Origin: Callorhinchus milii
Lineage: Eukaryota
NCBI RefSeq assembly: GCF_018977255.1
Contig: NW_024704757.1
Span: 7,564,001-7,628,000, forward strand
Reading direction: 5' to 3'
DNA: 64,000 nt
The stretch's first letter is position 1. Each line of letters begins with the position of its first letter. The position numbers were made by a program. Positions 18,001 to 39,000 of the stretch are shown in pieces.

Positions 18001-21000
18001 CTTCAGCAAACTCTTGGGAGTATAGTATTGTTAGCTTCAAAACTGGATAGATATCACCACATAGGGTTGACTTAATTCCGACATTCTGTTGCAAAGCAGA
18101 TCATCTTGGCAACAGCTCAGCCCCAAGGAAATCACGCTTGCCGCTCCCCGAAAAAGGATCGTCACTACTTAGTCATTTGATGTGCAAGCAGTGAGAGATC
18201 CAAGGCAGCTCCGAGAGAAAAGGGGGAAATGCTGACTAAAGGCAGGATCAATTATTTTCTCCTGTTCCTCCCAAAATTCAAATTCATTCTTCCTCCTGAC
18301 AGAATCCTCACTGCATCATCTCTCAATGCAGCTCATTCCTTCTCAAGGCCTGTGCATCTCCTCATTCTTCCCATTGTCCTAGTATGTACAGGCTTTCAAA
18401 CCCAAGCTTAACAACATTTAAGACTCTGATGTCTCAGTATCTCTCCAAATCTTTCAGCCTGTTGATGTGCTCTACTGTTGATCTTTGGCCTTCATCGAAT
18501 GACTAAATATTAAAAAGTGCACTTACACAAAGAACAGTCAGTAATGATAGGCAGAAGCTGAGCAGAACAAGTGAGCTGGAGAAAGAATACTGCACATTTA
18601 CTGGGTAAGCTCTTATAGGTGAGATGATAGGGCTAAGTAGAACAACAGAAGTGAGTGATAGGATAGTTAGATGGGGGACTAAATGTGTGTTGCACACACA
18701 TTCATACAGGAAGTCAGGTGCACATGACAGGTCCAGGGACAACAAGACAAGTTTACTGACATACTTGCACAGATGAATGAGCCAAAAGTGACATATAAAG
18801 AGGTGAACAAAGGCACATGAGGAGTTAATGTAACTTCAGGAAAATATGCTTCAGATCAACAGGAGTCGCATTGCAACGACAGACAGATGGGGTAACAAAG
18901 CAGGAATAAGATTCAACTTTCCAACAGATACATTGGTAGAATGACAAACGATGGTTAGAGAAGGGAAGTGCAATTTCTCTGTGCAGGCCAAGTGGCAGAG
19001 GCAGGACTGGCAATCAGAGCAAGTAAGTCTCCTATACAGACTCCTACGAATGGGAGTAATGTGATTAATAGAACGAGACATAGATGAATGCTAGATCACT
19101 TCTGCTGTACTCTCCTAACAAGTAGAAGTGTTTCCTAACATTTCGCCGACAAAACACAGTCTTTACAGTATATTCTGTGAAGCACTTTGAGACATCTCAA
19201 AGACTAAGGCTCTAGATCAAATACAAGGATTATTATCAACAAGTACAGCTGGAGTAAGACAGATGCAAAGGGATAGGCTGAAGCTCCCAACAGCCTGGAA
19301 GTGTTAGGAATTATATAGAATCATAGAATATTACAGCACAGAAGGAGGCCATTCAGCCCATTGTGCCTGTGCCAGCTCTTTGAAACAGCTACCAAATAGC
19401 CCCACTCTCCGCTCTTACCCCATAGCCCTGCAAATGTTTCCTTTTTATAGAATCTTTCAGCACAGGAGGAGGCCATTCGGCCCAAATCTGTTGTAAGAAT
19501 GGCAAAATGTTGTCAACATACTAAAGCCACATCTATTTAAGGATGAAGTGCATCAAAATAGGACTGGTTAGCAAGTCTGATGGGGGAGGGGCGGGGGTTT
19601 ACCAGGTGAAGGGGGGTTGTCACAGTGAATTTGCTGCACAGAACAGACAGATAAGTAGTTATGTCTCAGGGATATTTTGCAAAGTTGTCGAGAGCGAGGA
19701 AATGTTAAAAGGGGCATTTATAATTAACAGGAACGACGCAGCTTACAAGACAAATGGTAAACATATGGAACGGTGTTTGAAATGCGTTACACGTCAAATG
19801 TAGCAGGTCACGGCTAAACCGGGGCAGGTGGTGGATAAATGGCCGCTTCCTTGCAATGTGGGAATGTGAAAAAGAGAGCAATCGGGAGCGGGACAGGTTA
19901 CAAAACAGCGTAGACAAGTGCCGAGGAGTGACAAGCGGCAAAAAGGTGCCTTTTTCACAGATCTTTTGAAACAAATATCAGAAGGAGCCGAGTGTGAGTC
20001 TCGGCCTGAGACCGTGCAGAGCCGGACCCGGTGCCGCTGACTCGGGGTCTGAGGCACCGGGAGCCGGTTTGGGGGCTTCGTTATTTACCTGCAGAACCAC
20101 TTCCACGTCGTAGGAGTTGCCTTTACTTTTCTGGTGGCCCCTGAACTTGGAGCCGCTGTAGAGGAGGGTGGTGGCGACCCCGGGCTGCTGGGTGTTGATG
20201 GGGGGCGGCGGCACGAGCGAGGAGGACTCGGTGCGGACGGGCATGGCGCGCTGTCACCGCCTGACAGGAGCCGGGAGGGAGGGAGGGGGAGGGGGGGGGG
20301 GGAGGGAGGGGAAGAAGGAATAAAGTGGCTAATGAAGAGCTGAAGCACAGAGGAGCCGCTCAGCCGCCGCCACAGCTTCGGCCTCGTTCAGTCCCTGACA
20401 ACGCGAGATGGCTGCAGCCCTCCCTCCCACTACCGGAGCGCCAGATAGCAACGCCGCTCCCCATTGGTTGGCGGCTGCCGCCGGCACCGACCCAGCAATG
20501 ATCGGCCTTTCTGATTGGCGGGAGTGTGGGAGGGTGGGGGCGCCCGCCGGGGGTCACGGTCAGGGCGCCCAAACCGCGAGTACGCATGCGTCGAACCAGC
20601 TCTGCCTGACCCCCCCCCCCCATCCGCTACTGGGAGTCGTTGTCTTTCCGTCTCCTCGCCGCTTCCTAACTGTGCGCATGCGGAGAAGGTGGGTCTGAAG
20701 GAGTCTGGGAGTTGTAGTGTATGTGATGTCACTCTGGCTACATGTGACAAATATTTTGGAAGACACGCAATGTAATGGGTTCATCCAATGAGCCGTCGAA
20801 TGTCGCTCAAGCCCCTTTTGGTTTAAAAAATGTAAATGATTTGATTATTTCAGTCCAACTTGTTAAATTGTAATCCCTATTTCTGCTGCTGGTTTTGTAT
20901 AAAATATATATTAACTATGATAATAGCCCCAAAAAATATACGGTCAATTCGTTTTACAGTACATTCTGTGACGCGCTTCGAGACGTCTCGAAGACGTGAT

Positions 21001-36000: not shown

Positions 36001-39000
36001 TCTCACAGTTCACAAGTCTCACTCGTTACACATCACCTGCAGCTTCCAACCCGGATTTGCATTGTTTTGTGGTTAAAAAACACACACACACACAAGTCTT
36101 ATTCTTTTGGGAGAGCATCGAGTTCAGGTTAGCGTTTGGAAGAAAGAGATCGTCACTTTCCTGGCAACTCAACCTGAGCCCATGGATCAGCCGCGACCGA
36201 GCAACAACCAAACCAGATGGGAGTAAAAGATTTATTTTGTTTATTACCTGAAATATCTCAAACCGGGACTGAACCGTGTGGATCGGGAGCGGCGCTGGAA
36301 CCGGAGATGGTGACTGTGTTTGTCGTCAAATGGGTGATAGACGTGGTATTGTGTTGAGTGGGAGCGGCAATACCTCTCCCACCTGCGGATTCCGGATGTT
36401 ATCTGATTACTTGTGTCAGTGGGGAGTGTGGGTTGGGCTGGAGCTGATGGTTGGCATTGGAGGCTGAGCCTGAGGGTTGGAGCTGGGGCTGAGGGTTGGG
36501 GGCTGGGGGTGGGGGCTGGAGGTTGGGGTTGGGGGCTGGAGGTTGGAGGTGGGGGCTGGGGTTGGAGGTGGGGGCTGGGGGTTGGAGGTGGGGCTGGGGT
36601 TGGAGGTGGGGGCTGGGGTTGGAGGTGGGGGCTGGGGTTGGGGGCTGGGGGTTGGAGGTGGGGGTGGAGGTTGGAGGTGGGGCTGGGGTTGGAGGTGGGG
36701 GCTGGGGTTGGAGGTGGGGGCTGGGGTTGGAGGTGGGGGCTGGGGGTTGGAGGTGGGGGCTGGGGTGGGAGGTGGGGGTTGGAGGTGGGGGCTGGGGGTT
36801 GGAGGTGGGGGCTGGGGTTGGAGGTGGGGGCTGGGGTTGGAGGTGGGGCTGGAGGTTGGGGATTGACATTGACTTTCCACCTCTGAGAGTTGGACAGCAG
36901 TGTTAACAAACATTACCTGGAGTGTGCGTTTGTGGTTGGGGCTGGGGGTTGGGATTGGAGGCTGGAGATTGGAGGCTGAGGGTTGGAGGTTGGGATTGGG
37001 GGCTGGGGGTTGGAGGTTGGGATTGGAGGCTGGGGGTTGGAGTTTGGGATCTGGGGTTGGAGGTTGGGATTGGGGGCTGGAGGTTGGGATGGGGGCTGGG
37101 GTTGGGATGGGGGGCTGGGGGTTGGAGGTTGGGATGGGGGGCTGGGGGTTGGAGGCTGGGGTTTGGAGGTTGGGATGGGGGGCTGGAGGTTGGGATGGGG
37201 GGCTGGGGGTTGGGATGGGGGGCTGGGGGTTGGGATTGGGGGCTGGGGGCTGGGGGTTTGGACACCAGAGCCCCAGGCGTGGGGCTTGGGAGACACCACC
37301 CTTCAAATGGGGGGAGTGGGGGGCACAGACACAACACATTCCTGAATCATTTCTTCTCAGTGGAAAAGCCACGGTATTTTTTTGTTAAAAACAGGTATTT
37401 TTTGTTACAACAGAGCCGGATAATTAAGATAGCAATTCATCTCTTTGAGGTGTGGTGTTGCTGAGCGGTGCAGTGGGTCTCTGGCTCTCCCGAGTGACAA
37501 CTCCAAGACCACGTAGCAGCGATTTTATCCACAATCTCTTCACTCTTCGCTGACGAACAAGATCTTAAAAATCACGTTTTTTTTAAAAAAATGGTTATTT
37601 AGGTGATAGAGACGTAATATTGAATGCAAGGACTATTATATTATCATTAAGATCTATTTCTTCCACTGTTTCCAGCCACCTCCACCCCCCCACCCAACAC
37701 ATGTGTCCACATTGGGAAGCCATCATCAGACTTGAGTATCCAAACCAGATTGACATTCCACCTCTGAGAGTTGGACAGCAGTGTTAACAAACATTACCTG
37801 GAGTGTGCGTTTGTGAGCGTATGCTTTTATCATTGAGGTTTTATATTAAGAGTTCTCAGTATTTACTGCTGAAGCTTCACGCCTACTCCTGGGAGAGTTG
37901 CTGTTTGTTGGTTACTGTTACTGTGGGTTGAATTGGTGGCAGTGCATTCACACACTTAGGTTTTACAACATTACTCACCAAACCTCTCTCAAAATCATCC
38001 ATCAAACATTTGCTCATCAATGTGTGGCTATCCCTCAGAGGATAGAGATAGTGTGATTTTTCCTGGGAGTTCTCTGAAACTGGTGACTCACAACAATAAG
38101 ATAATAACCTTATATTTCTGAAATGCTGTGCACTGTCCAGCACCTTGGCATGTCCTCCCGATATGAGAGGCACTATACAAATGTAATCTTGTTGTTGTTG
38201 CACCTATGACATTAGAATATATGAAAGCGCTTCATTTTTTTTTGAAGTGGAGATGCTGCCTTTTTGCATGCAAGCAAAACAAGCAATGTATACACAAACT
38301 GCCATAAATGAGCCCTTATATGGAGAAGTGTTGGCCACTTTCTCTTTTCAAATACACTGGTGTCAAGGGATGGATTGCAGATGGGACGCACCTCGGTTTC
38401 TGATCTCATCCAGAGCTTCAAAAATTGCATCTCCTCAAGCAGAGCAGCAGCTTAGAATGAATGTGAGGCTTTAACCCACAACATCTGACTTCAACGAAAG
38501 GCGTTTCCCGTGAATTAAAATCTCGACACAACAACAAAAAAGATTTTGCTAATTTTTAAAAGGTGTAAGCCCTTTAATTTTTTATACATTTAAAATCTCA
38601 AGAGAGTTTAGAAAATCAAATAGCAATTAATTAATGAAAACCAGTATCACAAGAGGGTAGTAAGTGGGGCTTTCTGGTGACAAAATATACACTTTACAGT
38701 ATATTTTGTGAAGCGCTTTGAGACCTTGAAGACGTGATAAGGTGCTATATCAAATGCAAGGATTATTATTTTAAAACAAATTCATTTATTTAGTTTGAAC
38801 CCATTCCCAGTGCAAGTTCTCACTTGGAGAATCAATTCGTTGCCTGCAAAAACAGTCCTTTTAAAATCACAGCTTTAGTGGTAAATTGGAATTTTCTTTA
38901 TTGATCATTACCGCCAAGCTACCATTGTTATGATGAAAGCATTGACTCATACGAAAAAGAGAGTTATTTAAATATGAGCTTCAGAAATTAAATCAATCCA

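What the first reader, a model, noticed from the sequence alone, without database searches (positions are those of the whole stretch)
20573..37815. Recent ~9.86-kb-period tandem duplication giving two intact CHST12-like genes
Seen: 20573-28520 and 30436-37815 are co-linear and nearly identical, including all nested TEs. They differ by scattered SNPs, small indels, minisatellite length and one amino acid (K87N); both ORFs are intact. Inference: a young copy-number gain of a chondroitin/dermatan 4-O-sulfotransferase in a cartilaginous animal, possibly polymorphic. A falsely duplicated haplotig is the main alternative.
Basis: partly seen in the sequence, partly recalled or inferred. Interest (0 to 1): 0.7.

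Follow-up and report, generated by a model that had tools for sequence, protein, structure and literature searches.

The report
Young tandem duplicate of sulfotransferase gene
A roughly 9.9-kb stretch carrying a complete CHST12-like sugar-sulfating enzyme gene sits twice in a row in what is almost certainly the elephant shark genome; it is most likely a real but ordinary young gene duplication, and only sequencing reads can rule out an assembly error.

Summary
Window 20573-28520 and 30436-37815 are direct, co-linear copies with a period of 9863 bp. In unique sequence they differ by 24 SNPs and 11 indels over about 6.0 kb (99.6% of aligned bases identical). They differ strongly only in G-rich minisatellite length. 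Each copy holds an intact 338-aa minus-strand ORF (337/338 identical, K87N) with a full Pfam Sulfotransfer_2 domain.

The host is very probably Callorhinchus milii, not human. Both proteins are already in NCBI. A transcript-derived C. milii protein (V9KXB7) is near-identical.

The genes are not CHST12 orthologues. They fall in a chondrichthyan-only clade of short CHST12-like paralogues, so 4-O-sulfation of chondroitin or dermatan is inferred, not shown.

The junction favours a real rearrangement. There is no N anywhere in the window. A 1.9-kb G-quadruplex-rich minisatellite restarts in the same phase as the unit's internal array. A 16-19-nt inverted copy of the unit's first bases follows, forming a 22-bp hairpin.

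A falsely retained haplotype (PacBio CLR/Falcon assembly) is not excluded, because no reads were available.

Tandem chst12 copies are already described in zebrafish, so interest is low to moderate. Confidence that the duplication is real is about 0.7.

The parts
20573..28520 (.). Duplication unit A (7948 bp): 3' flank, RT fragments, CHST12-like gene, SINE, putative 5' exon, array 1, X, array 2, V, X
30436..37815 (.). Duplication unit B (7380 bp), co-linear with unit A; runs seamlessly into the unique right flank
23179..24195 (-). CHST12-like ORF, copy A, 338 aa, K87. Sulfotransfer_2 domain spans residues 91-327. N-terminal hydrophobic anchor and three N-X-S/T sequons.
33025..34041 (-). CHST12-like ORF, copy B, 338 aa, N87
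28521..30421 (+). Junction minisatellite (1.9 kb, 20-nt consensus unit of the array-2 type). It starts in the same phase after X as array 2 and holds 27 canonical G-quadruplex motifs.
30419..30461 (+). Junction palindrome. A 16-19-nt inverted copy (30419/30422-30437) of the first bases of the unit (30443-30461), with a 5-nt loop. It is part of a 22-bp predicted hairpin.
26616..27736 (+). G-rich minisatellite array 1, copy A (1.1 kb); copy B is 36474-36861 (0.39 kb)
27811..27970 (+). Minisatellite array 2, copy A; copy B is 36934-37258
28454..28520 (+). 67-bp direct repeat X, second copy in unit A. The other copies are 27743-27809, 36868-36934 and 37749-37815. The last base of X is the right end of the duplicated unit.
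21709..22946 (-). Retroelement remnant (RVT_1 and RT_RNaseH_2 ORF fragments) just 3' of the ORF; the copy in unit B is 31572-32809
24886..25194 (.). tRNA-derived SINE-like repeat between the putative 5' exon and the coding exon; the copy in unit B is about 34732-35041
19750..20750 (.). CpG island that holds the left breakpoint (20573). It is the promoter region of the neighbouring GID4-like gene.
20089..20244 (-). First coding exon of the GID4-like (Vac_ImportDeg) neighbour. Its ATG at 20244 lies 329 bp from the left breakpoint. It lies outside the duplication.

Best explanation
This is a genuine, evolutionarily young direct tandem duplication (period 9863 bp) in the Callorhinchus milii genome.

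Each unit carries a complete gene for a short, type II membrane, Golgi-type carbohydrate sulfotransferase. The gene belongs to a chondrichthyan-specific CHST12-like subfamily. Its coding sequence is a single exon. A putative non-coding 5' exon and promoter lie about 2.2 kb upstream, next to a G-rich minisatellite. Both copies therefore look functional and should transfer sulfate from PAPS to a glycosaminoglycan. GalNAc 4-O-sulfation of chondroitin or dermatan is the most likely reaction, by homology.

The duplication most likely arose by replication template switching. A fork running through the 67-bp repeat X re-copied the G-quadruplex-prone array that follows the other X. It then switched, through a short fold-back at a palindromic motif, to a point 329 bp upstream of the start codon of the neighbouring GID4-like gene, inside that gene's CpG island.

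Shown: the two copies, the intact ORFs, the domain, the conserved motifs, the clade, and the junction structure.
Inferred: enzymatic specificity, promoter and exon structure, the switching mechanism, and that the assembly is right.
For: Copies and ORFs.

Domain and motifs: the Pfam Sulfotransfer_2 match is full-length (profile 2-252 of 252, E 1.1e-59). The segments PKVACTQWKR and FLFVRDPFVRLISA sit in columns that are invariant or nearly so in 104 named homologues. I recall these as the PAPS 5'-phosphosulfate and 3'-phosphate binding motifs.

Origin: both proteins lie on one 16,789,714-bp contig. That length is also given for C. milii CHST12 and for XP_007903963.1. The third cluster member is V9KXB7_CALMI.

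Clade: the window pair plus V9KXB7 (100/99), plus XP_007903963.1 (99/97), sit inside a 9-row chondrichthyan-only clade (100/98) out of 38 rows.

Evidence that the rearrangement is real:
- There is no N in 64 kb. Gaps between the copies are a stated hallmark of false duplications (PMC9516828, passages read).
- The junction is a novel composite. The array after the second X repeats the first 31 or more bases of array 2 in phase.
- A 16-19-nt inverted copy of the unit's start follows, giving a 22-bp hairpin (dG -26.3 kcal/mol, z -9.1, 0 of 200 shuffles). TGG and AC overlaps at the two joints were read.
- 27 of the window's 76 plus-strand G4 motifs lie in the junction array.
- Unit end and unit start share no repeat that could mislead an assembler.
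- Differences between the copies look like mutations, not read errors (18 transitions to 6 transversions).
Against: No reads, depth or second assembly could be examined.

The likely source assembly is PacBio CLR assembled with Falcon (PMC12952989, Table 1). Its authors report retained haplotype scaffolds for the lamprey assembly made in the same study (PMC8302630, passage).

The 0.4% SNP divergence could equally be allelic. I found no heterozygosity figure for C. milii.

A 1.9-kb minisatellite is exactly where long-read assemblies go wrong. PMC9516828 notes that false copies are sometimes joined by unsupported filled sequence.

Five of the 10 indels listed up to 26217 are single bases, which could be polishing errors.

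Constraint on the CDS is not significant: 1 of 24 SNPs where 4.7 were expected, P = 0.05-0.07.

Function rests on about 50% identity to CHST12. There is no solved relative. The AlphaFold model was poor (pLDDT 61).
Confidence: 0.7

Rival explanations
1. Assembly artefact (heterotype false duplication). The two units are the two haplotypes of a single-copy locus, strung in tandem. They are joined through a mis-assembled or gap-filled minisatellite and a chimeric or fold-back long read.
For: The likely source is a CLR/Falcon assembly. The same study reports retained haplotypes in its lamprey assembly. The divergence is 0.4% SNPs plus length-variable minisatellites, which is what alleles can look like. 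The join lies in 1.9 kb of low-complexity sequence. A short inverted stretch at the start of unit B could be the remnant of a missed-adapter read; this last point is my inference, not a tool result.
Against: [quoted passage not shown]

This reading needs three coincidences:
- a 1.9-kb haplotype-specific insertion exactly at the end of X;
- a contig end at that point;
- a second contig starting at 20573-equivalent with an inverted 16-19-mer.

Unit end and unit start share no repeat to create a false graph edge. The junction array begins in phase with array 2, as a templated biological event would.
Confidence: 0.2
2. A real but much older duplication, kept nearly identical by ongoing gene conversion between the two units.
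For: SNPs are unevenly spread. By 500-bp bins from 20573 the counts are 5, 2, 0, 0, 3, 1, 1, 0, 1, 4, 7, 0, 0. The middle, including the gene, is cleaner than the edges. The older paralogue XP_007903963.1 is a mosaic relative to the pair: 40/40 identical in residues 241-280 but 16/40 in residues 121-160.
Against: Near-identity covers the whole unit, including dead retroelement and SINE sequence and the V segment. No block of old divergence is left inside the unit. The shared repeats have copies elsewhere in the window at only 73-89%. Conserved-site heterogeneity explains the protein mosaic equally well.
Confidence: 0.1

Closest known systems
CHST12 / chondroitin 4-O-sulfotransferase 2 (C4ST-2), with CHST11, CHST13 and CHST14 (naming as in PMC4368567, passages read)
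   Same: Sulfotransfer_2 domain over its full length. Conserved PAPS-binding-type segments. N-terminal membrane anchor and N-glycosylation sequons. Uninterrupted coding exon. Every specifically named hit among the 120 listed is CHST12, CHST12-like or CHSTC, and none is CHST11, 13 or 14.
   Different: Only 47-53% identical. About 80-100 residues shorter, because the stem region is missing (alignment). Placed outside the clade that holds canonical CHST12 of sharks, rays, C. milii and bony vertebrates. C. milii has its own canonical CHST12 (444 aa). Activity is untested.
Lineage-specific tandem chst12 copies in teleosts (zebrafish: five tandem copies next to chst12b; PMC4368567, passages read)
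   Same: Tandem amplification of CHST12-type genes in a fish lineage, with copy number varying between species and function of the extra copies unproven.
   Different: Different lineage and a different subfamily. The zebrafish short form falls on the canonical side of the tree. Here the copies are far younger (0.4% divergence) and the junction is preserved.
Heterotype false duplications in long-read assemblies (PMC9516828, passages read)
   Same: Two adjacent, near-identical copies with haplotype-like divergence, both annotated as genes.
   Different: No assembly gap between the copies. Sharp unique flanks. A composite junction carrying a templated inverted insertion. Depth and k-mer criteria are untestable here.
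Replication-based complex tandem duplications (FoSTeS / MMBIR; recalled from the literature, no paper read here)
   Same: A non-homologous junction with 2-3 nt overlaps, a short inverted templated insertion and a re-copied nearby segment, next to structure-forming DNA (G4 array, palindrome).
   Different: The mechanism is inferred from a single junction. An alternative history also fits: an ancestral [X-array2-V] x2 followed by loss of one unit in copy B.

Membership tests
Sulfotransfer_2 (PF03567) Golgi carbohydrate sulfotransferases | Domain match above the curated cut-off over the whole profile | tested here: met
   203 bits against a cut-off of 22; profile 2-252 of 252; residues 91-327
Sulfotransfer_2 (PF03567) Golgi carbohydrate sulfotransferases | Conserved PAPS-binding segments (5'-PSB and 3'-PB; motif names recalled) | tested here: met
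   P106, K107, A109, W113, K114, R167, P169, F170-A176 are identical to the residue found in 104 of 104 named homologues
Sulfotransfer_2 (PF03567) Golgi carbohydrate sulfotransferases | Type II topology: short cytoplasmic tail, one N-terminal hydrophobic anchor, luminal N-glycan sequons | tested here: inconclusive
   A hydrophobic stretch at about residues 8-24 and sequons at N80, N201 and N291 were read from the sequence. No topology predictor was run.
CHST12 (C4ST-2) orthologue group | Falls inside the clade of canonical CHST12 sequences | tested here: not met
   A 9-row chondrichthyan-only clade (100/98) is separated from the 29 other rows, which include C. milii CHST12. The tree is unrooted and has no CHST11/13/14 outgroup.
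CHST12 (C4ST-2) orthologue group | Sulfates the 4-O position of GalNAc in chondroitin or dermatan | not testable with these tools
   Needs an enzyme assay
True tandem segmental duplication | Two co-linear direct copies with unique outer flanks and one novel junction | tested here: met
True tandem segmental duplication | Normal read depth per copy and reads spanning the junction | not testable with these tools
   No reads available
Heterotype false duplication | Assembly gap between the copies | tested here: not met
   0 N in 64,000 bases
Heterotype false duplication | Divergence between the copies equal to local heterozygosity; half depth; 1-copy k-mers | not testable with these tools
   Divergence was measured at 0.40% SNPs. 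No heterozygosity value for the species was found, and there are no reads.

The most novel reading that the evidence does not exclude
The duplication is real, very recent and still segregating as a copy-number polymorphism in elephant shark. It would be the newest step in a continuing expansion of a chondrichthyan-only CHST12-like subfamily. C. milii has at least five such proteins: the pair, XP_007903963.1, a 338-aa one on another contig, and V9KZL4. That subfamily may have acquired a glycosaminoglycan sulfation specificity of its own in cartilage. The preserved junction would record a G-quadruplex-minisatellite-driven template switch with a fold-back inside a neighbouring gene's CpG-island promoter.
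Probability: 0.15. Interest if true: 0.45.

Novelty: new member of a known kind. Interest (0 to 1): 0.25.

Why it matters
If real, this is a clean, datable example of how a glycosaminoglycan-sulfating enzyme family grows in a cartilaginous fish. Its breakpoint junction is unusually legible: a G4 minisatellite, a 67-bp repeat and a palindrome.

It also flags a chondrichthyan-only CHST12-like subfamily whose substrate is unknown.

If false, it is a reminder that two RefSeq genes in a widely used reference may be one.

Either way it is not surprising to a specialist. Tandem chst12 copies are already described in teleosts (PMC4368567), and both proteins are already in public databases.

Tried and rejected
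- Solved structures: phmmer against the PDB gave 0 matches at E <= 0.01.
- Structure prediction: AlphaFold2 on a 61-row alignment of named homologues gave mean pLDDT 61.2 and pTM 0.55.
- Fold search: Foldseek against the PDB gave 0 matches at E <= 0.001 out of 275 at E <= 10. Several weak rows are sulfotransferases, but nothing is usable.
- Other ORFs: 20 ORFs elsewhere in the window were scanned against Pfam. Only the two retroelement ORFs inside the unit matched.
- Long reading frames: translating long frames of the left flank for Pfam was rejected because of stop codons, so single ORFs were sent instead.
- tRNA search: ARAGORN found none.
- Purifying selection between the copies: 1 of 24 SNPs fell in the CDS where 4.7 were expected, P = 0.05-0.07, not significant.
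- K87N: I asked whether it hits a conserved site. It does not. The column reads Y 52, K 37, R 12, G/H/N 1 each in 104 named homologues.
- Heterozygosity of C. milii: not found in the papers searched or read.
- Published description: 'chst12' plus 'elephant shark' returned one unrelated MHC paper. The six-term search found no chondrichthyan study.
- Assembly methods: Supplementary Note 1 of PMC8302630 could not be seen because supplements are closed.
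Full report
**1. Observation**

The window is 64,000 bases with no N. Self-BLASTN finds one outstanding direct repeat. It is 20573-27420 vs 30436-37262 at 96.2% over 6895 columns. It is continued by 27187-28520 vs 36475-37815 at 84.8%, where minisatellites align out of register. The period is 9863 bp.

Global alignment of the non-minisatellite parts gives these counts:

| Segment | Identical columns | SNPs | Indels |
|---|---|---|---|
| 20573-26615 vs 30436-36473 | 5995 | 24 (18 transitions, 6 transversions; 5 in CpG context) | 11 events, 43 bases |
| 27971-28520 vs 37259-37815 | 543 | 7 | 3 events |

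SNP divergence is therefore 0.40%. The individual events are listed.

The real differences are in two G-rich minisatellites. Array 1 is 1.1 kb in unit A and 0.39 kb in unit B. Array 2 is 0.16 kb in unit A and 0.32 kb in unit B.

Each unit has an intact 338-aa ORF on the minus strand, at 23179..24195 and 33025..34041. They are 337/338 identical and the one difference is K87N. tblastn finds no further copy or fragment in the window.

Shared nested repeats are real:
- Retroelement ORF fragments with RVT_1 and RT_RNaseH_2 domains lie at 21709-22946.
- A SINE-like element lies at 24886-25194. Sister copies elsewhere in the window are 80-89% identical, and two of them carry Rfam tRNA matches.

**2. 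Whose genome**

The window is not taken for human. The third member of their 90% cluster is V9KXB7_CALMI.

The window is therefore very probably from Callorhinchus milii, the elephant shark, a holocephalan. It would lie on the same chromosome-scale sequence as the canonical CHST12.

Table 1 of PMC12952989 (passage read) describes the current C. milii reference as PacBio CLR, Falcon, Chicago/Hi-C and HiRise. PMC8302630 (passages read) gives 68-fold PacBio coverage and a contig N50 of 1.6 Mb. I cannot prove that the window is from that assembly.

**3. What the gene is**

Pfam Sulfotransfer_2 matches across its whole profile (E 1.1e-59).

Of 669 homologues at E <= 0.001, the best 120 were listed. 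Every specifically named row is CHST12, CHST12-like or CHSTC, and none is CHST11, 13 or 14. Identity to canonical CHST12 proteins is only 47-53%, and the window protein lacks most of their stem region.

Two maximum-likelihood trees (31 rows; 38 rows; named rows only, no outgroup, midpoint root for drawing) place the sequences as follows:
- The window pair groups with V9KXB7 (100/99).
- Next comes C. milii XP_007903963.1 (341 aa, 72% identical; 99/97).
- All of these sit inside a 9-row chondrichthyan-only clade (100/98).
- That clade also holds short 'CHST12-like' proteins of Heptranchias, Heterodontus and Pristiophorus, and two further C. milii proteins: a 338-aa one on a 12.7-Mb contig, and V9KZL4.
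- Canonical CHST12 of C. milii, sharks, rays and bony vertebrates lies on the other side of that branch.
- treekit warned about long branches, so the deeper placements are provisional.

The residues I recall as the PAPS-binding motifs (PKVACTQWKR; FLFVRDPFVRLISA) lie in columns that are invariant or nearly so in 104 named homologues. The N-terminus has a hydrophobic anchor, and there are three N-X-S/T sequons.

K87N falls in a variable column: Y 52, K 37, R 12, G/H/N 1 each. It says little about function.

CHST11, 12 and 13 are the chondroitin 4-O-sulfotransferases and CHST14 is the dermatan 4-O-sulfotransferase (PMC4368567, passages read). Assigning that activity to this divergent subfamily is inference.

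The transcript-derived V9KXB7 shows that a gene of this kind is expressed. It has K87, like copy A, plus D269N.

**4. Gene structure and surroundings (inferred from sequence)**

On the minus strand an acceptor-like site (…tttaaag|g) lies about 60 nt upstream of the ATG. A donor-like site (cag|gtaata) lies near 26390, in a CpG-richer patch next to array 1. This suggests a non-coding 5' exon and promoter inside the unit. If so, both copies are complete genes.

The left neighbour is a GID4-like gene on the minus strand. Its ORF pieces were searched exon by exon against Pfam Vac_ImportDeg:

| Exon ORF | Profile positions | E-value |
|---|---|---|
| 20089-20244 (ATG at 20244) | 2-27 | 0.007, below the cut-off |
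| 10267-10437 | 48-90 | 2.5e-11 |
| 1760-1921 | 103-153 | 1.6e-19 |

The joined model was deliberately not built or searched.

A CpG island at about 19750-20750 covers the GID4-like first exon and the left breakpoint. The duplication starts 329 bp upstream of that start codon. It copies only the distal edge of the island, not the exon.

**5. The junction**

Unit A ends at 28520, which is the last base of a 67-bp sequence X. X occurs twice per unit, at 27743-27809 and 28454-28520 in unit A and at 36868-36934 and 37749-37815 in unit B.

In both units the first X is followed by array 2. The second X of unit B runs into unique right-flank sequence. The second X of unit A runs into a 1.9-kb array (28521-30421) of the array-2 consensus. 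Its first 31 or more bases are identical to the start of array 2.

The junction array carries 27 of the window's 76 plus-strand G-quadruplex motifs, against 1-3 in each internal array.

Between this array and unit B lie 16 nt (30422-30437) that are the reverse complement of 30443-30458. The match extends to 19 nt if the TGG shared with the array is counted. A shared AC lies at the return to the forward sequence (read). Single-stranded, this forms a 22-bp hairpin (dG -26.3 kcal/mol, z -9.1, 0 of 200 shuffles as stable).

The core of the hairpin is a natural 10-nt palindrome in the CpG island.

This is the signature expected of a replication template switch. A nearby segment is re-copied after the homologous X. 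A structure-prone array follows, and then a fold-back with 2-3 nt overlaps. That interpretation is mine, and the FoSTeS/MMBIR label is recalled.

A variant history fits equally. The ancestor could have had two [X-array2-V] units, with the breakpoint inside the second array 2 and later loss of one unit from copy B.

**6. Real or artefact**

PMC9516828 (passages read) lists the marks of false duplications. They are half depth, gaps between the copies, discordant linked reads and 1-copy k-mers. [quoted passage not shown]

Only the gap criterion can be tested here, and it is not met.

For an artefact:
- The source is a CLR/Falcon assembly.
- The same study reports retained haplotypes in its lamprey assembly.
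- The divergence is haplotype-like.
- The join lies in low-complexity DNA.
- Five of the 10 indels up to 26217 are single bases.

Against an artefact:
- The unit's end and start share no repeat that could create a false overlap.
- A haplotype-specific 1.9-kb insertion exactly at X, a contig end at that point and an inverted 16-19-mer at the next contig's start would all have to coincide.
- A single real event explains all of these.
- The 3:1 transition bias shows the differences are mutations, which excludes an error-driven 'homotype' duplicate but not a heterotype one.

I put the real duplication at about 0.7, the artefact at about 0.2, and an older duplication homogenised by conversion at about 0.1.

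**7. Age and selection**

Repeats nested in the unit have sister copies in the window at only 73-89% identity, so the duplication is far younger than those insertions.

If a neutral rate of order 1e-9 per site per year is assumed, 0.4% corresponds to roughly two million years. That rate is an assumption of mine, not a result, and the figure would be larger for this slowly evolving lineage.

One SNP of 24 falls in the 1017-bp CDS where 4.7 were expected (P = 0.05-0.07). This suggests constraint but is not significant. SNPs cluster at the unit's two ends.

**8. Novelty**

Lineage-specific tandem copies of chst12 are described in zebrafish (five copies next to chst12b), with variable numbers in other teleosts (PMC4368567, passages). 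Both window proteins are already public.

I found no paper on CHST12-type genes in elephant shark or other chondrichthyans. One search returned 1 unrelated paper, and one search returned 2 papers, neither on sharks.

This is a new member of a known kind. It is of modest interest, mainly for its legible junction and for the unexplored chondrichthyan subfamily.

**9. Left unchecked**

- Reads and depth.
- Other holocephalan loci, because no eukaryotic contig collection was available.
- The assembly methods in Supplementary Note 1 of PMC8302630, because supplements are closed.
- Species heterozygosity.
- A rooted family tree.
- Enzyme activity.
- Structure work led nowhere: no PDB relative, a model with pLDDT 61, and no Foldseek match at E <= 0.001.

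Noticed in passing
window 1760-20244, minus strand: A GID4-like gene (Pfam Vac_ImportDeg) fills the left third of the window. Exon ORFs lie at 20089-20244, 10267-10437 and 1760-1921. A likely further exon inside 9548-9886 was recognised by eye only and has no Pfam hit. Its CpG-island promoter contains the duplication's left breakpoint.
   Followed up: partly
protein P0122 (V9KXB7_CALMI) vs window ORFs, residue 269: The transcript-derived C. milii protein has K87, like copy A, but N at residue 269. There, 104 of 104 named homologues and both window copies have D. This could be a third allele or copy, or a transcript error.
   Followed up: partly
window ORFs vs P0123 (XP_007903963.1): Identity to the older C. 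milii paralogue is mosaic. It is 40/40 in residues 241-280 and 36/40 in residues 81-120, but 16/40 in residues 121-160 and 18/40 in residues 1-40. Either past gene conversion or uneven constraint could explain this.
   Followed up: partly
window 12093-12164 and 45673-45735, minus strand: These are Rfam tRNA matches (43.7 and 39.6 bits) that ARAGORN does not call. They sit at the ends of copies of a roughly 300-bp repeat with at least 10 partial copies in the window, i.e. a tRNA-derived SINE family. One copy lies in each duplication unit.
   Followed up: partly
window 54103-55056, 55485-55807, 59154-59628: Three further GC-rich minisatellites lie in the right flank: a C-rich 13-17-nt unit, a 45-nt unit and a 29-nt unit. 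G4 motifs cluster at 54-55 kb (minus strand) and 58-60 kb (plus strand). Together with the arrays in the units, this makes the region unusually rich in structure-prone repeats.
   Followed up: no
window 4291-5038 vs 61730-62480; 14313-15086 and 5808-6097: Dispersed repeat pairs at 73-85% identity. The latter two resemble the retroelement remnant inside the units.
   Followed up: no
C. milii proteins P0126 (338 aa, contig of 12,683,008 bp) and P0127 (V9KZL4, 346 aa): Two more short CHST12-like paralogues of C. milii lie outside this chromosome-scale sequence, or are of unknown location. They form their own long-branched pair inside the chondrichthyan-only clade.
   Followed up: partly
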